Part shown: piece by piece, positions 14,246 through 51,965 of the stretch | Layout: the number at the start of each line of letters is the position of its first letter | How positions within the stretch are numbered: the stretch's first letter is position 1 | DNA from: Haliotis cracherodii | Taxonomy: Eukaryota | Direction: 5' to 3' | Assembly (NCBI RefSeq): GCF_022045235.1 | Contig: NW_027266266.1 | Span: 5,081,848-5,145,847, forward strand | DNA: 64,000 bases | Notes under the pieces: generated by a model | Databases searched by the model: none | The model's input: the letters and a program-made list of their open reading frames with translations, nothing else | Told to the model about the DNA's origin: nothing | Translations under genes and position numbers: made by a program

Positions 14246-14518
14246 CATCAGAGCAGCAGGATCCAGAGTAGCCTCGTCCAGAGTCACAGATGCTGCTTGA
14301 GAAACTGCCGTTGTTGAAACAAACTTCATTGCAGCTCTCGGACTCAACTGTGTCATTCTCAGACAGGCTGCAGTCGTACAGGCAGTCCTTAACGGTTTGT
14401 CCTTCACAGCAGCAGGGTGACCGTGACCTTGTCCTTTGACCTCCTCCACATGTCTGGCTACAGCTGCTCCATGGCTGCCACGCGTTCCAGGAACAAAGGG
14501 GGCAAGTCCGAGTCCTGT
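14246..14518 (-). CDS. TSR gene exon 3 (phase 1-1): RTRTCPLCSWNAWQPWSSCSQTCGGGQRTRSRSPCCCEGQTVKDCLYDCSLSENDTVESESCNEVCFNNGSFSSSICDSGRGYSGSCCSD
   Basis: Minus-strand acceptor catccatttag and donor gatg|gtagga. A canonical TSP1 repeat plus a Cys-rich tail that aligns with exon 1's tail. Length is 273 nt. Confidence 0.55.
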
Positions 14519-15489: not shown

Positions 15490-16090
15490 AAGTGCAATCA
15501 TCATATTGCAGGCCAGAAGCAGATACTTCATAACATCACTGCTATTTAAATCATCACATTGGAGGTCAGTAGTAGATACCATCAGCATCACTGCTATTCA
15601 AATCATCATATTGCAGGCCAGTAGCAGATACCAAATTATTATAGCATCACTGCTATTCAAATCACCATACAGGAGGTCAGGAGTTGATACCAATAGCATC
15701 ACTGCTATTCAAATCATACTGCAGGTCAGGAGTTGATACTAATAGAATCACTGCTATTCAAATCATCATACTGCAGGTCAGGAGTTGATACCAATAGCAT
15801 CACTGCTATTCAAATCATCATATTGCGGGTCAGTAGCATATACCAATAGCATCACTGCTATTCAAATCATCATACTGCAGGTCAGGAGTTGATACAAATA
15901 GCATCACTGCTATTCAAATCATCACATTGCAGGCCAGTAGCAGATATGCCGTAACATCACTACTTTTCAAATCATGTTATCTCGGGCTAATAGGAGATAC
16001 TTCACTCCATTACTACTATTCAAATCATTATAGTGCAGGCCAGTGGCAGATACCTCCTAACATCTCTACTGTTCAAATAATCATATTGGA
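15490..16090. repeat. Tandem repeat with a unit of about 60 bp (...cactgctattcaaatcatcatattgcaggccagtagcagatacc...), about 10 copies
   Basis: Visible periodicity. It abuts the Tc1 remnant. Confidence 0.75.
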
Positions 16091-16650
16091 GGATAGTTGC
16101 ACATTTTATGCTCGCAGTGCGGGTGTTCACAGGCGTCGCGGGGAACGTTATGCACGAAACTGCATAGAGGAAGTGGACAGGTTTGATGGTGTTATTGTGA
16201 TGATGGGGGAAGATATTCCCTACGCTAGTAGAACAGTCTTGGTGCAAGTTTTGGGTGAATTTAACGGCACAACGTTTCGGGGATGAGATTCTTCGGCCAC
16301 ACGTCCTTCCGATGATGCGGCAAGCTAACGTCATTTTCGAACAAGACAACATCCGACCCCACAGGGCAAGACTGACAACAGTTTTGTCCATGCATCACAA
16401 GATCCAGGTCCAGCCATGGCTCTCCTTGTCTCCAGATTTTAACCCAATCGAACATTTATGTGACGCACTGGATCAACGACTGCGAGCACGTCAGCAACAA
16501 CCACAGAACCTCCGACACTTTGCAAAAGCACTGCAGACAGAGTGGGAGAACATTCCTCAGGCAACAATTCGGAATCTGATTGTTCCATGGGTACAACTAT
16601 GCCAGTCAGTTTTATACTCTGATGGTGGCCATACAAGATATTGATTAATA
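15927..16650 (+). mobile_element. Tc1/mariner transposon remnant (frameshifted transposase, plus strand)
   Basis: ORF 16255..16644 carries the DDE-domain signatures EQDNIRPHRA and SPDFNPIEHLCD. The upstream frame reads VHRRRGERYA...GGVIVM. Confidence 0.75.
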
Positions 16651-18179
16651 GACCTTTACCTTGAACATGCAAAGCTCCATGTTCCATATGGAGCCTAGGT
16701 CAGTGACAATGATGTGTGTCAATTTTGAACAGTCGATCACCATTTGTCGATTATTTATTTGATGTATTAACTGTACATCTAAATTCACTTTTCCGTTTCT
16801 TTTTTTTTGCAGAGTATATAATTCTAACATGTTTGTGAAGGAGGATATCAAAAGGAGAAGGCTATAAACGAATTTGACAAAATGATGCTAGGTGGTGAAG
16901 TGAAGAAGGCTTAAGAAATGGAGCTAAATGTTATGACCATTTTTATCATTGAAATGGCTTTTCTGTCGCACTGTGTAATACAAATTATCTTTGTACTCTA
17001 CCATGACAATAAAGATTTTGCAAGAGAAACATCTGTTTCTGTATTTTAGCCTTTTCACACAAAACACGTGCGTATGAATACATCGATAGCCTACATATTG
17101 ATCCATAACAAATGGCTGCAGATCACCGATAAGAACTGCATACCGTATCGATAATTTAATCTGTTCAGTCATACTCCCGTTCATTTGGTAATAACCACGT
17201 TGTACCAGCAGCCTCTTCCCAGTAAATCTACAGGTTAATGTTGAACAACATCATAGATCGGGGTTGTCATCTTGCTTCGTGTGACACATATTGTCAGAGG
17301 CACGAATCGAGGCAATCTGTCACCCATACAATGGGCGATGGCATATTCGATTTCCAAGAAATGACAACAAGTTGCGATGAATTTATATTATAACACATGT
17401 CTTTGGGATCAGTTTGGAGGGTAACTTCTTTTTGAAAAACTTTTGTGTTTTGGACCCTTATTATGAAGTAGTCGAGAACATGTGCATTGTAATGTTTAAC
17501 TCATATAATATTTGTTACATTTATAACTACCTATGACCCCTTTTCGGAATGTTCTAAGACAATCTCATTAAAATCAGATCTTAGTTTTCGCTACGGCTAA
17601 ACAAAGATCTGAGGACATCCCATTAAGGGTCACGCAAGAACGACCTCGCGAATTTTGACCGTTCAATGAAATGACTGACAAGAAATAGACATTAGCCAAT
17701 CAGAAGGCAGCTTTCTCGAGCTTTACGACACTAGTTTCAAACTGGCGACTACGCTTCGAAACATATTTTGACGTATTCTCGGTTAAACATTTTAAAACTG
17801 ATAAAAAAAACACATTCTGGAATGGCTTACAGATGGCCTAGATTGTATGGATATAATCATAAAACCCGTAACTGTCGTTCCGAATACCCGCTGTTAAATA
17901 TTTCGTTGCATAGGTTGCATGATCAGAAAACACATTCCGTCTGTTTCCTTTCATGGTAAATTGAGATAAACCTATTGTGTTTTTCAATTTGGCGTTGTCC
18001 TCTCACTAGAGAGTAGACAGCGATCGGACTACATCAAACTTCAAAACACAGTAGGTTCATCTCCTAAATGTCTCTTTCCTGGAAGGTTTCAGTTAAGTGT
18101 ACAATTAGATCGTGATGATGAAGGATAAATCTCACTTACAAACCACTTACAGTATAATCATTACGTACCATTTACTAAC

Positions 18180-18350
18180 AGTCGGGTAGCCTAGTGGTTA
18201 AGGCGTTCGCTCGTAACGCCAAAGGCCCGGGTTCGATTCCTGACATGGGTACAATGTGTGAAGCCGATTTCTGGTGTCTCCCGCCGTGATATTGCTGGAA
18301 TATTGCTAAAAGTGGCGTAAAACCTCACTCACTCACTCACTCACTACTGA
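18180..18350 (+). mobile_element. tRNA-derived SINE, family 2 (about 165 bp)
   Basis: cagtcgggtagcctagtggttaaggcgttcgctcg...gggttcgattcc...attgctaaaagtggcgtaaaacc plus a cactcactcac tail. Confidence 0.7.
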
Positions 18351-18377
18351 CAGTCCAAGGGAATCCCTAGATATTAC

Positions 18378-18596
18378 CATTCTTGGTGCACAAATTGGTG
18401 CAGACCCTCACTTCAGTGCTGTTCCCCCGGAAGTTGCAGTCCTCAGTACAGTTATTCCCTTTCACCGACGTTTGACAGCAGCGCCATCTTTTCCTGGTTC
18501 GCGTTCCACAGCCACAGCCTGTGCTACAGCCTCCCCATGACAACCAGTTGACCCACGTGCAGTGTCGGGCACAGTCACCAAATGCAGTTGTCTCGC
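18378..18596 (-). CDS. TSR gene exon 2 (phase 1-1): ETTAFGDCARHCTWVNWLSWGGCSTGCGCGTRTRKRWRCCQTSVKGNNCTEDCNFRGNSTEVRVCTNLCTKN
   Basis: Minus-strand acceptor tttaccag and donor aatg|gtaata. TSR-like W..W..W..C...C.C.......R.R..CC. Length is 219 nt, a multiple of 3 with phase 1-1. Confidence 0.5.
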
Positions 18597-18714
18597 CTGG
18601 TAAACATATAAATGCGAAGTTCGTTATGTCAACCTAATATCTTCCATAACAAGGATAATCCTACTTACACTTGTTGCTGCTCAACCTACCATTGTCCAAG
18701 CCCTGGTTATGTTA

Positions 18715-18895
18715 TTTACCCAACAGTGAGTGAGTGAGTGAGTATGTTTTTACGCCGCTTTTAGCAATATTCCAGCAATATCACGGCGGGGGACACCAGA
18801 AATGGGCTTCACACATTGTACCCATGTCGGGAATCGAACCCGGGTCTTCGGCGTGACGAGCGAAAGCTTTAACCACTAGGCTACCCGACCGCCCC
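18715..18895 (-). mobile_element. SINE family 2 copy in inverted orientation
   Basis: Reverse complement of the 18180 copy. Together the two copies bracket TSR exon 2 (18378-18596). Confidence 0.7.
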
Positions 18896-18984
18896 ATTTA
18901 CCCAACAGAGTGGAAACAAAAGCAGTGTGCGATACACCCATCTTCCTATGAATACAATGTTGTTAAATAATACACACATGGTAT

Positions 18985-19225
18985 CTTTGGGGTTTTTTTT
19001 ACGCCGCACTCAGCAATATTCCAGCTATATGACGGCGGTCTGTAAATAATCGAGTCTGGACCAGACAATCCAGTGATTAATATCATGAGCATCGATCCAC
19101 GCAATTGGGATCGATGACATGATCACCCGATCCCGTTAGTCGCCTTTTACGACAAGCATAGTCACCTTTAACGGCAAGCATGGGTTGCTGAAGATCTATT
19201 CTACCCCGGAATCTTCACGGGTTGT
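18985..19225 (+). mobile_element. SINE family 3 copy
   Basis: Full-length match. Confidence 0.6.
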
Positions 19226-19304
19226 ATCTTTGGGGGATTTGGTTGTTGACTTTAGTGAGTAACGTATTACAACATTACAACTAACCCATATGTTTTTAAC
19301 AGAA

Positions 19305-19690
19305 TAAGACCGCCTCCGTGGTCCTGTGGTAGAGCGTCCGCCCGGAGAGCGGAAGGTCCAGGGTTCGATCCCGGGCCGCGTCATACAAAAAGACGTTAAA
19401 AGATAGTACTTGTTGTTACCCTGTCTGGCGCTCGGCATTAAAGGGCTAAAACAAGGACTGGTCGGCTCGGAGTCAGTATACTGTGTCTGAGTGGGGTATT
19501 CATGTTAAACTGCGGCATGGTATCTCAGTGAGCTAGCACTATAAATCGGCATCAGTCCGGACTAGTACAAGCAGCCACACACACACATACACGTGCATGC
19601 ACGTCGCTATATAAGTGCAATAATCTTGGACGCGACGTTAAACCCAATTTCACCTCACCTTTAACAGAATAGCGTCGCAGATAACTTGCA
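19305..19690 (+). mobile_element. tRNA-derived SINE, family 4 (about 380 bp; head ccgcctccgtggtc.tgtggtagagcgtccgcccggagagcggaaggtccagggttcgatccc)
   Basis: A second near-identical copy lies at 59905-60195. A partial inverted head lies at 28995-29090. Confidence 0.65.
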
Positions 19691-20639: not shown

Positions 20640-20940
20640 CTAACTCGGGGGCACGGGTGGCCCAGTCGTCTGAGGTGCCGCGATTCGCTGTGCAGGGTAG
20701 AGTCCCTTGGGCACGCCAGGAATCTATGATTTTGGGTTCGAATCCCGGTTCGCCCCGATTATATTTCTAAGTTTGTCAGCACCATACCCGTGCTCGTGGG
20801 TTTCACCGAAGTGGTACACTTCTGAGACCTGCATCACTTCTGGCTTTCCTCCCACATTAAGCTGACACGCCGCGGTAGAAATGGAATACTATTAAAAGCG
20901 GCGTTAACCTCAACTCACTCACTCACTCACTCAAGACTAG
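20640..20940 (+). mobile_element. tRNA-derived SINE, family 1 (about 290 bp, (CACT)n-like tail), full copy
   Basis: tRNA-like head gggggcacgggtggcccagtcgtc...gggttcgaatcccgg, the body, and a cactcactcactc tail. Four or more copies lie in the window. Confidence 0.7.
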
Positions 20941-21244: not shown

Positions 21245-21566
21245 ACATGCCTCGTTCACAACAAACTCCATATCTGAGAGGAGGACAGTGACAGTAGCCA
21301 TCGATGAAGCTTCCACCATTAGGGCAGTGTGTCTCACAATATTCCGTCTCCACGGACGCGTTTGGTCGGTGACATTTACCGATACAGTCTGGAATATGAA
21401 CTCCACAACACATCTTTCGTGTTCTGGTTCTCAGCCCAGCACATGTTCTGGTACAGGAGCTCCACAAACCCCAGGACTCCCACTCACAGGCCTGAAGACC
21501 GGGTTCACACACACAGTCCACCACCAGGGGCAGCACCACGGCGACGTACACCCTCAGGCGAGTCAT
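21245..21566 (-). CDS. TSR gene exon 1: MTRLRVYVAVVLPLVV signal peptide, a TSP1 repeat (CEWESWGLWSSCTRTCAGLRTRTRKMCC) and an EGF-like Cys-rich tail (...CETHCPNGGSFIDGYCHCPPLRYGVCCERG)
   Basis: It is part of ORF 21132..21608. Thrombospondin type-1 signature (W-x2-W-x2-W-S-x-C-x2-T-C-x-G-x3-R-x-R). Hydrophobic N-terminus after Met at 21566. The 3' donor is uncertain, either gcatgt (GC donor) or gtattg. An acceptor (ttttcag) just upstream of 21608 means an additional 5' exon cannot be excluded. Confidence 0.5.
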
Positions 21567-30984: not shown

Positions 30985-31170
30985 CTGAGGGGCGGTCGGG
31001 TAGTCTAGTGGTTAAAGCGTTCGCTCGTCACGCCGAAGACCCGGGTTCGATTCCAGACATGGGTACAATGTGTGAAGCCCATTTCTGGTGTCCCCCGCCG
31101 TGATATCGCTGGAATATTGCTAAAAGCGACGTAAAACATACTCACTCACTCACTCACTGCTGCTGACTGA
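30985..31170 (+). mobile_element. SINE family 2 copy (gene C intron 1)
   Basis: ggggcggtcgggtagtctagtggttaaagcgttcgctcgtcacgccgaag...cactcactcactcactgc. Confidence 0.7.
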
Positions 31171-37379: not shown

Positions 37380-38420
37380 TTGTCAGACACACTACAAGTT
37401 CTTTGTCGACACAGTTGCCTTCAATAGCGTGTATGACGTCCAGCTACCTCAACGCATGCTGTGATACGCCGCCTCATCGGTGACGTCAGTCTTCTGATGA
37501 CGTGGGCTCGAATCCCTTGCCACTCGTCTCTCAGGGCCTGCTTCAATTCTTGTCTGTTGACGGGAGGCTGATGGCGTGCTCTAATCTGTCTGTCAAGCTG
37601 GTCCCACAGATGTTCAATAGGATTCATATCGGGTGGGTGGGCAGGCCAGGGCAAAAGGTCAACGTTCTGCTGGTTTAGAAAGTCCCGAGTCAGTCTTGCA
37701 GTATGGGGCCTGGCATTGTCATGTTGAAACAATGACCCCTGCTGTTGGTTTTGTAAGAACGGAAGCATAACTGGCTGCAACACATGGTCTCTGTACTGCA
37801 CAGCATTAAGGTTTCCCTGTATAATCACCAAATCAGTCTTCTGATCTCCACAAATACCGCCCCACACCATGACACCTCCCCCACCGAATAGATGGATACA
37901 CGGCGAAGCCAAACGTTCCCCTCTGCGTCGATAAACTCGTTCTCTGCCGTCATTGTGAATCAAGTTAAACCGACTTTCATCAGAAAATAACACTCGACGC
38001 CCATCGCAGTCTCAGGCGTCGATGTTGAGCAGTCAGGACCATTCCTCGGAAAGGACGATATGCTCAGATTCCAGCAGCACGAAGTCGTCGTAGTACTGTA
38101 CGTTGGCTAATGGGATGTCCCAACGCTAAAGCTGCCGTCACCGTCACGAATCTGTTTCGCAGATGAATGAGTCGTATCTGACCGTCTTCCAGTGGTCCGG
38201 TTCTAGGCCTGTCCTGTGTTTGGTGTACAACCAAACCTTCTGGCAATTTGGACCTGTGTTGCCCCCATTTCGTCCATACCGATGGCTCTCTCTCTCTGCT
38301 CCTGTGACAGTCGTGACATTTCCTTTGTGTGCTTTCATTACGTGTGGTAATACCCTGCAGACGAACGCATATATACAGCTAACATGCACGTACAGTTTAT
38401 GCTATAGGCGGGAAACCTGT
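37380..38420 (-). mobile_element. Tc1-like transposon with a largely intact transposase split into two ORFs
   Basis: ORF 37421..37993 carries FQHDNARPHTAR, DMNPIEHLWD and GGGGVMVWGGI (DDE domain). ORF 38064..38246 carries N-terminal helix-turn-helix-like sequence. Confidence 0.75.
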
Positions 38421-44887: not shown

Positions 44888-45298
44888 CTATCGAGTCCTA
44901 GACGTGTTCAGTGGGGGGCCATCTGGGCTCATTACTGGACATGGCATTCTAGGGATGTTGTGCTGCTGGAGGTGAGCCTTGACGATTCGTGCACGGTGGG
45001 CATGGGCGTTGACGTCCTGAAAGACGAAACGTCGACCCACACGTCTTGCAAACTGGACAACAAATGGTTTTAGTATATTTTCCTGATAGTACTGTCCAGT
45101 GACAATTGCTTGCACGATATGAAGTGGGGTTCGCTCATTGAATGGTGATGCAACCCCTGCCAAGTGCAAAGTGAATCGGGACTCATTTGAAAGCATGACA
45201 CGTGAACAGCGACGTTTACCCAAGTTTCGACTGTCTGTACACCGTTGCGTCTGTAGGCAATATGACGATTTGTAAGGGGCGACACAACACGTGGTCAT
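44888..45298 (-). mobile_element. Tc1/mariner transposase fragment
   Basis: FQDVNAHAHRARIVKAHLQQHNI...SPDGPPLN. It lies within the last intron of gene A. Confidence 0.55.
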
Positions 45299-45419
45299 CG
45301 AGCATGGAGACGAGCTGTATGTAGACGATTTCTAATCGTGTGACCCGTAATTCGTACTCGAGTAGCGTGAAGAACGTTTGCGGAAATTTGATTCACCGTT
45401 CGAGCTCGATTTCGAAGAG

Positions 45420-45870
45420 CCTGGACCGCCTCTGTGGCCTGGTGTTAGAGCGTCCGCCCGGAGAGCCTGGACCGCCTCTGTGGCCTGGTGTAAGAGCGTC
45501 CGCCCGGAGAGCCTGGACCGCCTCTGTGGCCTGGTGTTAGAGCGTCCGCCCGGAGAGCCTGGACCGCCTCTGTGGCCTGGTGTTAGAACGTCCGCCCGGA
45601 GAGCCTGGACCGCCTCTGTGGCCTGGTGTTAGAACGTCCGCCCGGAGAGCCTGGACCGCCTCTGTGGCCTGGTGTTAGAACGTCCGCCAGGAGAGCCTGG
45701 ACCGCCTCTGTGGCCTGGTGTTAGAACGTCCGCCCGGAGAGCCTGGACCGCCTCTGTGGCCTGGTGTTAGAACGTCCGCCCGGAGAGCCTGGACCGCCTC
45801 TGTGGCCTGGTGTTAGAACGTCCGCCCGGAGAGCCTGGACCGCTTCTGTGGCCTGGTGTTAGATTTTTTT
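45420..45870. repeat. 46-bp minisatellite of about 10 copies (cctggaccgcctctgtggcctggtgttagagcgtccgcccggagag), derived from the SINE family 4 head
   Basis: Direct tandem repetition is visible. The unit contains the ccgcctc.gtgg.ctggt.tagagcgtccgcccggagag segment of the SINE head. Confidence 0.8.
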
Positions 45871-46769: not shown

Positions 46770-47515
46770 ATATCATTTTCTTGACTCTCTTAATTCAAAA
46801 TTTATTTCCCAAATATAATGGACAACTTTCACTTACTATTACGCTTTGATTCAACCTACTGTGTGAGTTCGTAAATGAGTTGGGTCGCTTTCAGCATTAT
46901 TTTATAAATATCACGGTAAAGACGGCCAAAGAGTTCCACACATTGTACCCATGACAGGAAGCGTAGCCAGGCCCGAGGTTATAAAACTTCATGCTCAAAT
47001 CCGGTTTCTGGCTGAACTTAAATCTAAGACTCAATAAACGGAGGTTATGAATAATCTGAGTACGTTTTCGTGCTCAACTTCAGCATGAAATACGTACGAT
47101 CTCAAGTACGCTTTGGACCGTGCTCAACGCTGAGTTCGATATCAACAATGGCAGCCCACCTGCGTCAGACTCGACACACCACTTCCTTTTATTTCTGCAA
47201 ACAGAAGTTGTTCTCGTTGGATCACCTCCTGGACAAGACACACTTCCTCCGCCTGTGACCGCCTTCTTGACTCGGGCACGCTCTTCGTTGCCATTGGAAA
47301 TAATCGGACGACAACATCCGGGTTGTTTTCTTACCTTTCTCGACGGAAGAGTTCCAAATTGTCGCTTGTTTCATAAACACAGAGTACTTTGAGCATGCTC
47401 AAGCCGAGCGTGAGTAGTGCTCACCTGAATATGAATGATGTTTATTCTCGTAAATCACGGCAGTGATACAAAGATGTAATTGGACACAGGAAAAAGATAC
47501 GATGAAGAAAACATG

Positions 47516-49609
47516 TCAGTGGAAAATTTCCATACATGATCTTATATAACTTGCCAGTTTTAATAGAGTTGGCTTATAAGTAATGGACATCAAATGAGAG
47601 AATTTTACGGCAGAAGGATACATACAGTAGTATTGAGGCAAAAACTTGTTTCTAATTTCTGAGAGTTTTGGACATTCTAATAAAAAGTGCATTTCATCAC
47701 ATATAAAATTTTTACACAATGTACATTTTCTTTCCTCTCTCACAATATTATACCATCTTCCTGTTTCAATGGGTAATCTATGATTTGCTGTTCTAAAACG
47801 AGCAAGAGAGATGCGTAAGGTGATTGGTAGTTCTAGTAAATAAGGTTCTAGAGATGGTAACTCTTTAAACATGTTATAATAGTAACCTTTAGATGAATTT
47901 TCCTTTGATTCTCGCCATCTTTGCAGAAAATTATCAATGAGAACATGTTTCACATTTTGTTTCAACCATGCGACACTAATAAAGGTTTGAGACAGCCAAA
48001 TGTAATTAAAGCCTATATTTTGAAGAATGCATTTTACTTCTTTTAATAGTGGGAAATGGTAATCTGGATTTGCAATGGACATTTGAAACATAAGTTTATA
48101 TACTATACTAGAAAGGCTAGTTTGTGATGATGTTAGCTTGCACCAATATGAAATCATTCTTATCTTAATGAAAATGCTGAGAGGATACCTCCCTAGTTCA
48201 CCATATACCATGTAATCGGGTGTTGACTGTTTTAACTTGAGAATATATTTACAAAATTTAAGATGTACACGTTCAATGACAACAGTATTTTCAAAACCCC
48301 ACACCTCAGATCCATATAACAATACTGGCTGAACAAGTTGATCAAATAATTTCAGTTGACAGTCAATAGGAATTTCTAATATTCTAATTTTACGAAATAC
48401 AGCGTACATTGCTCTAGATGCCTGATCTGTCAGTCTCTTTAGTGCCTTACAGAATCTACCAGTGTTTGTAAATAAAATACCAAGGTAAACATATTCTTTA
48501 ACAACATGAAGAAACGAGCCATTTAACATAAACTTGAAGACTCTATTTGTGGAGCGCTTGGCAAAAATAACTACTTTCGTTTTGCCAACATTGACTTTAA
48601 GTTTCCAGATAGTACAATATTCTTCAAATATAGTGAGACACTTTCTTAAATCTTCTGGGCTTTCGGCCATTAAAACAGTATCGTCGGCATACAAAATGAG
48701 AAAAAGTTTTATGTACAGTTCAAGTGAATCTATTAAAAGGTTATTTACATGATGCAGTCCTTCAAAGTCATTTTCAGATAAAAATTGTTCAAGGTCATTA
48801 AGGTACAAAGCAAACAGGAAAGGTGACAAATTTTCACCTTGTCTTACACCAATTTGACATGGGAAGAAACCTGACACCTTGTTATTGTGTGTAACACAAG
48901 ATTTGATATTTTGATATATATTATATATGACATTAAAACATTTTCCTTTGATATTAGACTTTATCATTTTTGACCACAGACCACACCTCCATACTGTATC
49001 GAAAGCTTTGCTAAAATCGACGAAAACACAATACAACTTCTTATTAAGGTTTCTATAGATATCAATGAGAGCTTTAAGAATAAACATATTGTCAATTGTT
49101 GAGTATTTTTTTCTAAATCCTGCTTGCGCTTCGCTTATCAGATTAGTCTGAACTGAGTAAGCTTGTAAACGATTATTCAATAGTGTAGTGAACAATTTAC
49201 CTAAACAGCTTAGGATAGAAATACCTCTGTAATTGTCTGGGTCAGCTTGGTTTCCTTTGTTTTTGTAGATTGGTTTTATTTTGCCAACAAGCCAAGCTTC
49301 AGGTAAAACCCCAGTGTCAAAAACGAGGTTAAAAAGCCTTACGTAAACCGGCATCATAACATGAATAGAGCTTTTAATGTACTCATTGTAAATACCATCC
49401 AACCCACAAGCCTTATTGTTCTTCAATGCACGGACAGCTGACATAATTTCTTCTTCTGTAATCCTACAATCTAAGATATCATCATGATTATCGTAATTTG
49501 TGTTATTGGCAAAAACATCGTCATTATCATCAGAACTTTGATTAAGATCTTTAAAAAATTGAAAAAAATTGTCAATACTGATTTTTTTCTGCTGTTTTCT
49601 TTGGTTCAA
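47516..49609 (-). CDS. LINE ORF2 reverse-transcriptase part (697 aa) with a C-terminal Cys-rich motif
   Basis: RT motifs FRKKYSTIDN, FVDFSKAFDTV and YADDTVLM. The C-terminal segment is CTLCKNFICDEMHFLLECPKL. Confidence 0.8.
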   Translation of the reverse strand: MNQRKQQKKISIDNFFQFFKDLNQSSDDNDDVFANNTNYDNHDDILDCRITEEEIMSAVRALKNNKACGLDGIYNEYIKSSIHVMMPVYVRLFNLVFDTGVLPEAWLVGKIKPIYKNKGNQADPDNYRGISILSCLGKLFTTLLNNRLQAYSVQTNLISEAQAGFRKKYSTIDNMFILKALIDIYRNLNKKLYCVFVDFSKAFDTVWRCGLWSKMIKSNIKGKCFNVIYNIYQNIKSCVTHNNKVSGFFPCQIGVRQGENLSPFLFALYLNDLEQFLSENDFEGLHHVNNLLIDSLELYIKLFLILYADDTVLMAESPEDLRKCLTIFEEYCTIWKLKVNVGKTKVVIFAKRSTNRVFKFMLNGSFLHVVKEYVYLGILFTNTGRFCKALKRLTDQASRAMYAVFRKIRILEIPIDCQLKLFDQLVQPVLLYGSEVWGFENTVVIERVHLKFCKYILKLKQSTPDYMVYGELGRYPLSIFIKIRMISYWCKLTSSQTSLSSIVYKLMFQMSIANPDYHFPLLKEVKCILQNIGFNYIWLSQTFISVAWLKQNVKHVLIDNFLQRWRESKENSSKGYYYNMFKELPSLEPYLLELPITLRISLARFRTANHRLPIETGRWYNIVREERKCTLCKNFICDEMHFLLECPKLSEIRNKFLPQYYCMYPSAVKFSHLMSITYKPTLLKLASYIRSCMEIFH

Positions 49610-49682
49610 ATGATTTTAAAATTTCCCAAAAATTCTTAGGGTTACTATCCTTACATTCCCTCAGTTGTTGGGACACATTTGT

Positions 49683-50936
49683 CTATGTCTTAAATGCCTT
49701 CTTTAGGGTTTTACTATAAGCTCTACTAGCTGAAATGTACATAGCTTTGCTATTACTGTCTTTAGTCCTTCCATATATACGTTTACGCTTGTGGTAAAAT
49801 CTACGTGATGATTTACATTTTTCATCAAACCAGGGTTTATGCTTGTGCTTATGTACAGAATGTCTAGAATTTCTTACAGTACCTGGAGTAGTTTCAGCCG
49901 CAGTAACCAGCGTCTGAGAGGGTTTATTTACAATTTGGTTAATGTCATTTCGCTCTATTTGGTCTTTACATGCATCTAATTCTGTACACTGATGGGTAAT
50001 GGCAACCTTATCGATATTACATAAAAATGTTTCACTTTTATCAGGAACCCATCTTTTTACAACTTTATGTACATGTACATCCTTGTCATCATCTATAACT
50101 GGAGATAGTTGTTGTGCTGTACAATCTAACGTTAACGATAAGCCACAGTGTACATCGGACGAGATCGGATCAAACTCCTGTACATGTACCTCAAAATCTA
50201 TTGATAATGGGAATGTTTCTGCTGATGCAATACAATAATCGACAACACTGGCATTTCTGCATGTCAGTTTACCAATACCCTTGTCTTTGCCTAATCTTCC
50301 ATTCACAATATACAGCCCGTTATTTTTACATAAATCCAGGAGTTTATACCCGTTACAGTTTGTTTCAGTATCCATTGATATTCTATCTAAATTTACACCG
50401 GTGTCAACTAGAAGTTGTACATTTGAAAACAATAATTCCTCGTCAATAATATCATTGTCACATAAATATTCGTCCAAAATGATAAAATCCGGAAGATTTT
50501 TAGTACGAAAATTCATATCACCAACAATACACATGTACTGTGAGCAGTTTGACATACGAATGATATCATTTTCTAGTGTTGTAAATATTTCCGGTGAATG
50601 AAATCTACTTTGCTCTGGTGGTATATACACAGTTCCTAGGATAAGGTCATCGTTAACATGCAGGAAATCACTTGGTATCTTACACCATAAAACAATATCA
50701 TGCATCTTTTCGATGACGCTGACCTTGTCAAATAGTGTCTCTTTGATGGCTACAATGATCCCGCCAGATACACGTGTGTTCAGTGCGTTAGTTCCGTTAT
50801 TCATATGAACTGAGAATCCTGGGATTTTCACAGCATCTAAATCACACGTTTTAGTTTCAGTCTGACACAGTATATCGTATCTGGACACATCGTTCACAAA
50901 ATCGGGGTTCAACAGCTTTGTCCTAATCCCACACAC
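49683..50936 (-). CDS. LINE ORF2 N-terminal part: apurinic/apyrimidinic-like endonuclease (417 aa)
   Basis: EEP-family motifs (ILCQTETK..., D..H at the C-terminus) in the same frame as ORF1. It is separated from the RT ORF by a frame change near 49610-49690, next to a homopolymer run. Confidence 0.7.
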   Translation of the reverse strand: MCGIRTKLLNPDFVNDVSRYDILCQTETKTCDLDAVKIPGFSVHMNNGTNALNTRVSGGIIVAIKETLFDKVSVIEKMHDIVLWCKIPSDFLHVNDDLILGTVYIPPEQSRFHSPEIFTTLENDIIRMSNCSQYMCIVGDMNFRTKNLPDFIILDEYLCDNDIIDEELLFSNVQLLVDTGVNLDRISMDTETNCNGYKLLDLCKNNGLYIVNGRLGKDKGIGKLTCRNASVVDYCIASAETFPLSIDFEVHVQEFDPISSDVHCGLSLTLDCTAQQLSPVIDDDKDVHVHKVVKRWVPDKSETFLCNIDKVAITHQCTELDACKDQIERNDINQIVNKPSQTLVTAAETTPGTVRNSRHSVHKHKHKPWFDEKCKSSRRFYHKRKRIYGRTKDSNSKAMYISASRAYSKTLKKAFKT

Positions 50937-51023
50937 ATTAAGAGACAGTATCTTAAGTTTCTCGTGGGAAGTTACGTTTTCACTGTTAGGCGACTCACGG
51001 GTTTGCTGACCTCCGTTATTCTC

Positions 51024-51965
51024 CTACCGCGGCCTGTTTTCTCCCGTGTCCTCAGTCCTGGCCATCTTGTTGGGTTGTCTGTTGTCTGACCGACCGAAGG
51101 CACTCGCGTATGATCTCCTGCTGGGGGGAGGGTCTCGTGGGGTGAGATCTATAAACGGGTCGTCTCCTGGGTACACACGTCTCCCGTCTATATACAGTCT
51201 GTCTACTGTGAGGTTAGACTTCAAACCACGCCTCCTTGCTTCCTTGAAAATGGGGAGTAGATATCTCCGTCTCTGCACAATCTCTTGAGGAAACTGTTCA
51301 CTAACACCGAATTGCGTTTCTCTCAGCTGTCTTGTGTTAGTCAGGATTTCCCACCGTTCGTCTGGATTTGCAAATTTTGCCACTATAGTACGTGGTCTGT
51401 TAGATAAGTGAGGGCCAATCCTATGTACACGTAAGAGGTGAATGTCTGTGTCACACTTCATTTCTTTCTTTAAGAAACCTTGAATTACCTCTTTAGGTTC
51501 TTCTCCAGGCATTTCCGGGATCCCGTGAAAGAGTAAATTATCTCTCATAGAGCGTGTTTTCAGGTCAATGACATATTCTTTCAGGTCTCGCTGTTCCTGG
51601 TATATGGAGTCTATGTCATAAAACACGTCTTCTACATCTCTCGACAACCTGTCCCGATCATCGGTACTCTGTTCTGTCAGCTCCCGTACCTGTTGTTTCA
51701 GCTTTTTGTTTTCTGATGCAGTCTCTCTCACACAGGCTTCAAGCTTATCAACGCGAAGTGTTGTCTCTATCATTGTAATGTCGAGAGATGTCAGCTTATT
51801 GTCAATCATAGTTAATTTACTGTCAATGCTATCAACACACTGCATCCTCTGGTTTATGGAATGAACCATGGTAGTCAAGTGCCTCATTTGATCAAATAAG
51901 GTTTTAATCCATTCTGCGTTGTCAACACTGGACAACATGGCCTGGTTGAAAATCCGTGTTGGCAT
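51024..51965 (-). CDS. LINE ORF1p (313 aa; coiled-coil N-terminal half, L1-type RNA-binding C-terminal half ...VHRIGPHLSNRPRTIVAKF...DRLYIDGRRV)
   Basis: Intact ORF. The heptad-rich N-terminal half and the RPR-IVKF / YI-G motifs are typical of L1 or Tx1 ORF1. Confidence 0.7.
   Translation of the reverse strand: MPTRIFNQAMLSSVDNAEWIKTLFDQMRHLTTMVHSINQRMQCVDSIDSKLTMIDNKLTSLDITMIETTLRVDKLEACVRETASENKKLKQQVRELTEQSTDDRDRLSRDVEDVFYDIDSIYQEQRDLKEYVIDLKTRSMRDNLLFHGIPEMPGEEPKEVIQGFLKKEMKCDTDIHLLRVHRIGPHLSNRPRTIVAKFANPDERWEILTNTRQLRETQFGVSEQFPQEIVQRRRYLLPIFKEARRRGLKSNLTVDRLYIDGRRVYPGDDPFIDLTPRDPPPSRRSYASAFGRSDNRQPNKMARTEDTGENRPR

What the first reader, a model, noticed from the sequence alone, without database searches (positions are those of the whole stretch)
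18180..18895. Inverted SINE pair tightly bracketing TSR exon 2
Two copies of the same 165-bp tRNA-derived SINE sit in opposite orientation, one 28 bp downstream and one 119 bp upstream of the 219-bp phase 1-1 exon 18378-18596. The exon sits between near-perfect inverted repeats of about 170 bp. In other animals, flanking inverted SINE or Alu repeats pair in the pre-mRNA and promote exon skipping or back-splicing into circular RNA. An in-frame exon that is a multiple of 3 is exactly the kind that tolerates skipping.
Basis: inference. Interest (0 to 1): 0.55.

Follow-up and report, generated by a model that had tools for sequence, protein, structure and literature searches.

The report
Inverted SINE pair around abalone exon
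Two copies of a common abalone jumping element landed independently, in opposite orientation, on either side of one exon of a black-abalone membrane-protein gene. They could fold the pre-mRNA into a long hairpin, but this is an ordinary by-product of repeat insertion and no effect on splicing has been shown.

Summary
Arms 18181-18345 (+) and 18725-18889 (-) are 165 nt long, 93% complementary and 379 nt apart. They bracket a 219-nt phase 1-1 exon (18596-18378, minus strand) with AG/GT splice sites.

The arms are copies of a roughly 170-bp tRNA-derived SINE with A and B boxes and an (ACTC)n tail. Each copy has its own target-site duplication, and the two differ in divergence from the family consensus. 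They are therefore two separate insertions.

My six-exon gene model equals XP_071092922.1 of Haliotis cracherodii exactly, and that model includes exon 2. The exon encodes a divergent TSR-like repeat that falls below Pfam thresholds.

In silico the arms pair strongly (-299 kcal/mol; z = -24.5 against shuffles) and loop out exon 2.

Four homologous loci in three other abalone species lack the pair. The predicted skipped isoforms are not among the deposited protein sequences searched. No RNA data could be examined.

Simulation puts the expected number of such tight exon-bracketing pairs at about one or two per 1.18-Gb genome by chance.

Verdict: this is a clean new instance of a well-known configuration (inverted Alu or B1 pairs, nematode reverse-complementary matches). 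It is most likely neutral, and circRNA, exon skipping or A-to-I editing are plausible but untested by-products. Interest is low to moderate.

The parts
18727..18895 (-). Upstream SINE copy in intron 1. It is in the same sense as the gene, so the pre-mRNA carries the SINE sense strand. It is full length, including the GGGGCG 5' leader and the (ACTC)n tail.
   Evidence: Rfam tRNA scores 28.2 bits. Over the alignment with its flanking bases it differs from the 12-copy consensus by 4.4%. By my own reading, that is about 2-3 differences within the element body.
18714..18726 (.). Target-site duplication of the upstream copy (ATTTACCCAACAG), proximal repeat. The distal repeat lies at 18896-18908.
   Evidence: A perfect 13-nt direct repeat directly abuts both ends of the element.
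18896..18908 (.). Second repeat of the 13-nt target-site duplication of the upstream copy.
18378..18596 (-). Exon 2 of the gene: 219 nt, phase 1-1, encoding a divergent TSR-like repeat. AG at 18598-18597 and GT at 18377-18376.
   Evidence: The exact protein match to XP_071092922.1 is.
18184..18344 (+). Downstream SINE copy in intron 2, antisense to the gene. Its 5' end is truncated by about 6-9 nt. Its tail reads (AGUG)n in the pre-mRNA, placing four GUGAGU motifs roughly 30-50 nt after the exon-2 donor.
   Evidence: Rfam tRNA scores 36.1 bits. By my own reading it has about 8-9 body differences from the consensus, which makes it the older of the two copies.
18173..18183 (.). Target-site duplication of the downstream copy (TACTAACAGTC). 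Its partner TACTGACAGTC lies at 18345-18355 (11 nt, one mismatch).
18345..18355 (.). Second repeat of the target-site duplication of the downstream copy.
18181..18889 (-). Predicted pre-mRNA hairpin: a stem of about 165 bp (18725-18889 paired with 18181-18345) closing a 379-nt loop that holds exon 2 and both of its splice sites.
21251..21566 (-). Exon 1 coding part: ATG at 21566, signal peptide, first TSR-like plus EGF-like module. It ends with a GC donor at 21250-21249.
14246..14518 (-). Exon 3: third module, the best TSP_1-like stretch in the protein, phase 1-1.
13777..13983 (-). Exon 4: fourth TSR-like repeat, phase 1-1.
13024..13096 (-). Exon 5: transmembrane segment.
12462..12672 (-). Exon 6 coding part: cytoplasmic tail and stop codon.
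30989..31162 (+). Third full-length copy of the same SINE, with its own 10-nt target-site duplication (CTGCTGCTGA). It shows that the element is a dispersed family.
20882..20931 (+). SINE core fragment in intron 1 that could compete for pairing with the upstream arm (-85 kcal/mol, against -299 for the arm-arm duplex).

Best explanation
Two copies of an abalone tRNA-derived SINE retrotransposed independently, and at different times, into intron 1 and intron 2 of one gene. The element is about 170 bp long. It has Pol III A and B boxes, a core of about 45-60 nt shared with other abalone repeats, and an (ACTC)n tail.

The gene is a six-exon black-abalone gene (XP_071092922.1) for a single-pass membrane protein built of TSR-like and EGF-like modules. 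The two copies happen to lie in opposite orientation, 130 nt upstream and 33 nt downstream of exon 2.

The pre-mRNA therefore carries one sense arm and one antisense arm. These are predicted to zip into an imperfect duplex of about 165 bp, closing a loop of about 380 nt that holds exon 2 and both of its splice sites.

The arrangement is most likely a neutral accident of SINE bombardment of introns, not an evolved device. If the duplex forms in vivo, three by-products are expected: A-to-I hyper-editing of the arms, some back-splicing of exon 2 into a 219-nt circle, and some in-frame skipping of exon 2. Linear mRNA containing exon 2 would remain a product.

Shown here: the identity and independence of the insertions, the exon structure, and the pairing potential. 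Inferred: pairing in vivo and any effect on splicing.
For: Independent insertions:
- Each copy has its own flanking target-site duplication: 13 nt perfect for the upstream copy, 11 nt with one mismatch for the downstream copy.
- The downstream copy is 5'-truncated. It is also further from the family consensus than the upstream copy, by roughly 8-9 against 2-3 body differences (my own count from the alignment).

Dispersed family:
- There is a third full copy at 30989-31162, plus many core-only hits in the window.
- Copies at 77-96% identity occur in H. rufescens, H. rubra and H. asinina loci.

SINE features: a tRNA-like head and intact A and B boxes.

Gene: the model matches XP_071092922.1 exactly. 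Exon 2 is present in the homologues of all four species.

Pairing:
- The 771-nt fold has an MFE of -414 kcal/mol, against -241 +/- 7 for shuffles.
- The arm-arm duplex is -299 kcal/mol, and the best competitors are -85 to -127.

No sign of selection:
- The pair is absent around exon 2 in two H. rubra paralogues, in H. asinina and in H. rufescens.
- The chance expectation is about 1-2 such cases per genome.

Literature:
- Young, species-specific SINE dimers are the usual drivers of circRNAs and show no sign of selection (PMC8516420).
- circRNAs have been reported in abalone (PMC11764893).
Against: - No RNA data were available, so pairing in vivo, editing, back-splicing and skipping are all unobserved.
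- The annotated mRNA retains exon 2, and no skipped isoform is among the deposited proteins.
- From established knowledge: RNA helicases such as DHX9, ADAR editing and hnRNP coating can suppress such duplexes.
- From established knowledge: exons that circularise alone tend to be longer than 219 nt.
- The true orthologous loci in sister species, and the three close paralogues in the same genome, could not be fetched. The age of the insertions, and whether they are polymorphic, is therefore unknown.
Confidence: 0.6

Rival explanations
1. The pair is inert. The two SINEs are independent insertions, as above, but in the cell the arms do not pair productively. Possible reasons are co-transcriptional protein coating, helicase unwinding, and splicing that is faster than folding. 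Exon 2 would then be spliced constitutively, with no measurable circle, skipping or editing.
For: - The annotated product includes exon 2.
- No skipped isoform is among the deposited proteins.
- The exon-2 acceptor has a normal pyrimidine tract. Its likely branch-point region lies outside the stem, since the upstream arm ends 130 nt away.
- From established knowledge: many inverted Alu pairs in human introns give no detectable circRNA.
Against: - The duplex is very stable and outcompetes all other partners in the transcript.
- The loop is only about 380 nt, much shorter than the typical spacing of inverted Alu pairs that are edited in vivo (established knowledge).
- Repeats as short as 13 nt in nematodes suffice (PMC8330042). 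About 30-40 nt suffice in human minigenes (established knowledge).
Confidence: 0.3
2. The pair is a selected, lineage-specific regulatory switch. It was retained because looping out exon 2 yields a useful product: a receptor isoform that lacks the hypervariable second TSR-like repeat, or a functional circRNA.
For: - The configuration is rare (P = 9e-5 per window).
- The exon is in frame and modular.
- Exon 2 encodes the most variable part of a tandemly duplicated gene family.
- This paralogue is the outlier of the four black-abalone paralogues: it has a GC donor in intron 1 and has lost a conserved cysteine.
Against: - The pair is absent from all four homologous loci examined.
- The arms show ordinary decay, 12 mismatches including CpG transitions, and no compensatory changes.
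- About one or two such cases per genome are expected by chance.
- No isoform evidence exists.
- In mammals, dimers of young transposable elements at circRNA loci show no selection signature (PMC8516420).
Confidence: 0.05
3. The inverted repeat arose in a single event rather than by two SINE insertions. Candidate events are an inverted local duplication, a foldback or MITE-like element carrying the exon, or a long-read assembly artefact.
For: The only support is the close spacing and similar length of the two arms.
Against: - Each arm has its own different target-site duplication, and nothing flanks the composite.
- The arms differ at 12 positions and in 5' completeness.
- Exon 2 sits at the same place in homologues that lack the SINEs.
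- The assembly was built from PacBio HiFi reads (PMC9709981), and unique coding sequence lies between the arms.
Confidence: 0.02

Closest known systems
Inverted Alu (IRAlu) and B1/ID SINE pairs in introns flanking circRNA-forming exons of mammals. Sources are Jeck 2013, Zhang 2014 and Liang & Wilusz 2014 (from my own knowledge) and Gruhl et al. 2021 (PMC8516420).
   Same: - Two copies of a young Pol III SINE sit in opposite orientation in the upstream and downstream introns.
- A long intramolecular duplex brings the splice sites of the enclosed exon together.
- The elements are lineage-specific.
   Different: - The host is a vetigastropod mollusc, and the SINE is tRNA-derived with a mollusc core domain, not 7SL-derived.
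- The pair is unusually tight: a 379-nt loop around a single 219-nt exon.
- No back-splice product has been observed here.
Reverse-complementary matches in C. elegans circRNA introns, for example zip-2 (PMC8330042).
   Same: An invertebrate case in which intronic complementary sequences flank in-frame exon(s). Those sequences were shown to promote both back-splicing and skipping of the same exon.
   Different: The nematode matches are short (13 nt in zip-2), not derived from transposons, and conserved across species. Here the arms are 165-nt SINE copies and are not seen in homologous loci.
Intronic inverted Alu pairs that shift a constitutive exon to alternative splicing (Lev-Maor et al. 2008), and exon-in-loop hairpin skipping (Solnick 1985). 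Both are cited from my own knowledge.
   Same: An exon is enclosed in the loop of a hairpin formed by flanking inverted repeats. The predicted outcome is exon skipping.
   Different: Those effects were demonstrated with minigenes. Here the outcome is only an inference.
Described gastropod and bivalve tRNA-derived SINE families: the MESC/Meta superfamilies including Haliotis 'Hdi' and 'HalSINE1', and Nin-DC SINEs (PMC4758252, PMC4824008).
   Same: - A tRNA-derived head with A and B boxes.
- A conserved central domain shared between families.
- A short tandem-repeat tail.
- Presence across the genus Haliotis.
   Different: The published Haliotis MESC SINEs are said to end in (CACCT)n and to carry an internal (CA)n microsatellite. 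This element ends in (CACT)n/(ACTC)n and has no (CA)n.

Membership tests
tRNA-derived SINE (non-autonomous Pol III retrotransposon) | 5' head related to tRNA, with internal Pol III box A and box B | tested here: met
   Rfam RF00005 scores 36.1 bits (left copy) and 28.2 bits (right copy). Box A TAGCCTAGTGG and box B GGTTCGATTCC are present in both copies.
tRNA-derived SINE (non-autonomous Pol III retrotransposon) | Short, non-coding, and dispersed in many copies | tested here: met
   The element is about 170 bp. There are 3 full copies plus fragments in 64 kb, and 9 further copies in loci of three other Haliotis species.
tRNA-derived SINE (non-autonomous Pol III retrotransposon) | Each copy flanked by target-site duplications of variable sequence | tested here: met
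   The duplications are 13 nt, 11 nt (one mismatch) and 10 nt, and all three differ in sequence.
tRNA-derived SINE (non-autonomous Pol III retrotransposon) | 3' tail shared with a partner LINE | tested here: inconclusive
   The only LINE in the window (47516-51965, minus strand; RT domain) has a 3' end with no (ACTC)n tail and no similarity to the SINE tail. No other LINEs were examined.
Published Haliotis MESC/Meta SINE (Hdi / HalSINE1) | Terminal (CACCT)n repeat and internal (CA)n microsatellite, as described in PMC4758252 | tested here: not met
   The tail here is (CACT)n/(ACTC)n and there is no internal (CA)n.
Published Haliotis MESC/Meta SINE (Hdi / HalSINE1) | MESC/Meta central domain sequence | not testable with these tools
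   The consensus sequences appear only in figures and supplements that are not held. A text search for the core motif found no paper.
Inverted-repeat-driven circRNA or exon-skipping locus | Reverse-complementary repeats in both introns flanking the exon, able to outcompete intra-intronic pairings | tested here: met
   The duplex across the exon is -299 kcal/mol, against -85 to -127 for alternatives. In a 1.5-kb fold, 154 of 165 nt pair across the exon.
Inverted-repeat-driven circRNA or exon-skipping locus | Canonical splice sites on the enclosed exon | tested here: met
   AG at 18598-18597 and GT at 18377-18376.
Inverted-repeat-driven circRNA or exon-skipping locus | Observed back-splice junction or RNase R-resistant circle, or skipped mRNA | not testable with these tools
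   No RNA-seq access was available. The only proxy is that exact look-ups of the skipped protein isoforms found none.
Thrombospondin type 1 repeat (Pfam TSP_1, PF00090), as applied to exon 2 | Score at or above the Pfam gathering threshold | tested here: not met
   Exon 2 alone gives no hit at E <= 1. The whole protein scores 16.6 bits against a cut-off of 21.6, and the best-scoring stretch listed lies in exon 3.
Thrombospondin type 1 repeat (Pfam TSP_1, PF00090), as applied to exon 2 | Homology to bona fide TSRs, and the W-x-x-W / CSxxCG / RxR motif | tested here: met
   Exon 2 is 45% identical (E = 1e-16) to repeat 2 of P0006. P0006 passes TSP_1 at 34.8 bits. The motif WVNWLSWGGCSTGCGCGTRTRKR is visible in the translation.

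The most novel reading that the evidence does not exclude
In black abalone the SINE pair substantially re-routes splicing of this one paralogue. The result would be abundant exon-2 circles, or a major isoform that lacks the hypervariable second TSR-like repeat. One member of a fast-evolving tandem family of surface receptors would then have been functionally diversified by two SINE insertions. This would be the first documented SINE-driven back-splicing or exon-skipping case in a mollusc.
Probability: 0.1. Interest if true: 0.45.

Novelty: new member of a known kind. Interest (0 to 1): 0.2.

Why it matters
If the hairpin forms in vivo, this locus is a compact natural test case. It would show whether the 'flanking inverted SINE gives circRNA or exon skipping' rule, worked out in mammals and nematodes, also holds in molluscs.

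The test case has three convenient properties. The loop is only 380 nt. The enclosed exon is a single in-frame exon. Three close paralogues in the same genome could serve as controls, if they turn out to lack the pair.

circRNAs have been catalogued in abalone, but their biogenesis signals have not been analysed there (PMC11764893).

Beyond that, the finding only illustrates ordinary SINE traffic through introns.

Tried and rejected
1. Was exon 2 truncated by the downstream SINE? Exon 2 lacks the EGF-like extension found in exons 1 and 3. I rejected the idea because all Haliotis homologues, none of which has the SINE, end exon 2 at the same 'N|G-GT' position.

2. Fetching orthologous and paralogous DNA to date the insertions:
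- The black-abalone proteins P0001, P0020, P0021 and P0022 are not in the gene-position index.
- The H. rufescens, H. rubra and H. asinina loci were obtained. Their introns align with the window for only 2-67 nt beyond exon 2, so empty-site comparison is impossible.

3. Relaxed constraint on exon 2 as a footprint of skipping. I rejected this because exon 2 is the most variable region in all paralogues. Its dN/dS against the H. rufescens homologue (0.61) is like that of the other exons.

4. The LINE in the window as the SINE's partner. No tail similarity was found.

5. Naming the SINE family from the literature. No sequences were available.

6. A tRNA gene reading of the left arm. I rejected it because ARAGORN finds nothing and the acceptor stem is mismatched.

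Full report
**What is in the sequence**

The window holds a real inverted repeat. Arms 18181-18345 and 18725-18889 are 165 nt long, 93% complementary and 379 nt apart. There are 12 mismatches, and the longest perfect run is 33 nt.

Each arm starts with a degenerate tRNA-like head. Rfam tRNA scores 36.1 bits on the left copy, above the gathering score of 29. That is the only Rfam hit at gathering level in all 64 kb. The right copy scores 28.2 bits. ARAGORN calls no tRNA gene. Pol III box A and box B are intact in both copies.

A third full-length copy lies at 30989-31162. A core of about 45-60 nt (element positions roughly 100-160) recurs in about a dozen other places in the window, inside different repeats. 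Copies at 77-96% identity occur in the loci fetched from H. rufescens, H. rubra and H. asinina. The arms are therefore members of a genus-wide tRNA-derived SINE family with an (ACTC)n tail.

**Two insertions, not one event**

- The right copy (18727-18895, minus strand) is full length. It is flanked by a perfect 13-nt target-site duplication, ATTTACCCAACAG, at 18714-18726 and 18896-18908.
- The left copy (18184-18344, plus strand) lacks the GGGGCG leader. It is flanked by TACTAACAGTC and TACTGACAGTC at 18173-18183 and 18345-18355.
- The third copy has yet another duplication, CTGCTGCTGA.

Measured against a 12-copy consensus, the left copy carries roughly 8-9 body substitutions, several of them CpG transitions. 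The right copy carries about 2-3 (my own count from the alignment).

This rules out three alternatives: an inverted duplication, a foldback element, and an assembly artefact. The assembly was built from PacBio HiFi reads (PMC9709981).

**The gene**

Paralogous Cys-rich exons lie on the minus strand. Together with two further exons they give a six-exon model:

| Exon | Window coordinates (minus strand) |
|---|---|
| 1 | 21566-21251 |
| 2 | 18596-18378 |
| 3 | 14518-14246 |
| 4 | 13983-13777 |
| 5 | 13096-13024 |
| 6 | 12672-12462 |

The 432-aa product is identical to XP_071092922.1, annotated 'semaphorin-5A-like [Haliotis cracherodii]'. The window is therefore black abalone.

The protein has a signal peptide, four TSR-like repeats (two of them with EGF-like extensions), a transmembrane segment and a short tail. 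It is one of four black-abalone sequences grouped in the same 90%-identity cluster, all from the same 49-Mb contig.

Exon 2 is 219 nt, phase 1-1, with AG and GT splice sites. Joining exon 1 to exon 3 keeps the frame.

Calling exon 2 a 'TSR' needs a caveat. Exon 2 alone has no Pfam hit. The whole protein reaches only 16.6 bits on TSP_1 against a cut-off of 21.6, and that hit is in exon 3. However, exon 2 is 45% identical (E = 1e-16) to repeat 2 of paralogue P0006, which does pass TSP_1.

**Pairing potential**

In the pre-mRNA the upstream arm is the SINE sense strand and the downstream arm is antisense.

- The 771-nt segment folds to -414 kcal/mol, against -241 +/- 7 for shuffles (z = -24.5). 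The arms pair along almost their whole length.
- The arm-arm duplex is -299 kcal/mol. The arms folded alone reach -51 and -39 kcal/mol.
- Competing partners inside the transcription unit reach only -85 to -127 kcal/mol.
- In a 1.5-kb context, 154 of 165 upstream-arm nucleotides still pair with the downstream arm.

The stem base lies 33 nt from the 5' splice site and 130 nt from the 3' splice site. Both splice sites and the likely branch-point region are thus in the loop.

The antisense tail places four GUGAGU motifs roughly 30-50 nt downstream of the rather weak authentic donor (AUG|GUAAUA). Using one of them would read through an in-frame UAG. In the duplex these motifs would be masked by the (CACU)n of the other arm. 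That last point is inference.

**Is it more than chance, and is it conserved?**

With three full copies in 64 kb, random placement gives P = 0.019 for a close inverted pair. It gives P = 9e-5 for a pair that also encloses a whole exon. At these densities that is about 340 close pairs and about 1.6 exon-bracketing pairs in a 1.18-Gb genome. The configuration is rare but needs no selection to explain it.

Around exon 2 of two H. rubra paralogues, the H. asinina gene and the H. rufescens homologue there is no inverted pair. Their introns 1 and 2 are also much shorter or different. Intron sequence is alignable for only 2-67 nt beyond the exon. Strict empty sites therefore cannot be shown, and true orthologues could not be fetched.

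Exon 2 is retained in every homologue's annotated protein.

**Function**

Nothing here tests RNA. The only proxies are weak. The NCBI model keeps exon 2. The exon-2-skipped product and three other skipped variants are not among roughly 15 billion deposited proteins.

The literature shows that the mechanism is general:
- Reverse-complementary intronic matches promote both back-splicing and skipping of the enclosed exon in C. elegans (PMC8330042).
- In mammals the effective dimers are young, species-specific SINEs without signs of selection (PMC8516420).
- 11,744 circRNAs have been reported in Pacific abalone muscle, without any analysis of flanking repeats (PMC11764893).

My best reading is a neutral pair of insertions. 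Its likely by-products are A-to-I editing of the arms, low-level exon-2 circles and some in-frame skipping (confidence about 0.6). The main rival is that the pair is inert in vivo (about 0.3). A selected switch is unlikely (about 0.05).

**Comparison with known systems**

It works like inverted Alu or B1 pairs and like nematode reverse-complementary matches. Of the features that define such a locus, the structural ones are met. The defining product, a back-splice or skipped junction, is untestable here.

As a SINE it meets the head, box, target-site-duplication and copy-number criteria. It does not match the described features of the published Haliotis MESC SINE, which has a (CACCT)n tail and an internal (CA)n.

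**Verdict**

This is a new instance of a known kind, of modest interest mainly as a tidy test case.

Noticed in passing
window 21250-21249 (minus strand): Intron 1 of this gene begins with GC (GAG|GCATGT). The homologues in H. rufescens (GAG|GTATGT), H. rubra and H. asinina (GAG|GTGAGA) have GT. The exact match to XP_071092922.1 implies that NCBI also used the GC donor. An in-frame GT lies 6 nt downstream.
   Followed up: partly
window 14282-14280 (exon 3, residue 258): A cysteine that is invariant in the seven other Haliotis homologues aligned (ICDCG/ICGCG) is serine in this paralogue (ICDSG). This leaves an odd number of cysteines in the EGF-like part. With the GC donor, it makes this paralogue the outlier of the family.
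   Followed up: partly
window 18378-18596 and 12462-12672: The second half of the exon-2 repeat (CCQTSVKGNNC...) is the most variable stretch among all paralogues and species. Against the H. rufescens homologue, exon 2 has dS 0.17 and dN 0.10. The cytoplasmic-tail exon has 15 non-synonymous and 0 synonymous differences.
   Followed up: partly
window 18994-19229 and 19300-19620: Two further repeats are nested just upstream of the right arm. One is an abundant repeat of about 230 bp, with at least 9 copies in the window. It shares only the 42-nt core (TTTTACGCCGC...AGCAATATTCCAGC...ACGGCGG) with the SINE. The other is a different SINE with a tRNA-like head (Rfam tRNA 20 bits at 19312-19383).
   Followed up: partly
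window 45416-45863: A 46-bp tandem array (9.7 copies, 98% identical) has a unit that matches the tRNA-like head of the SINE at 19308-19350. It looks like a young satellite derived from a SINE head.
   Followed up: no
window 47516-51965 (minus strand): An apparently intact LINE with three long open frames of 313 aa, 417 aa and 697 aa. The third has an RVT_1 domain (E = 3e-37). Its 3' end shows no similarity to the SINE tail. A degenerate SINE copy lies just downstream at 46857-46973.
   Followed up: partly
window 37421-37993 and 44888-45298 (minus strand): Transposase remnants. The first has a DDE_3 domain (E = 1e-16). The second was not searched against Pfam.
   Followed up: partly
window 13324-13381 and 12085-12168: Sense-oriented SINE core fragments lie in intron 4 and downstream of the stop codon. 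They could pair with the antisense arm in intron 2 (-90 and -127 kcal/mol). In principle this offers alternative loops around exons 3-4 or exons 3-6.
   Followed up: partly
window 15496-16092: A 52/104-bp tandem array (about 11 copies of the 52-bp unit, about 80% identical) lies inside intron 2 of the gene.
   Followed up: no
L001 48651-48809 (+) and 50700-50860 (-): In H. rubra paralogue B, two copies of the same SINE family in inverted orientation, about 1.9 kb apart, bracket the last two exons. Kilobase-scale inverted pairs are therefore not unusual in this gene family.
   Followed up: no
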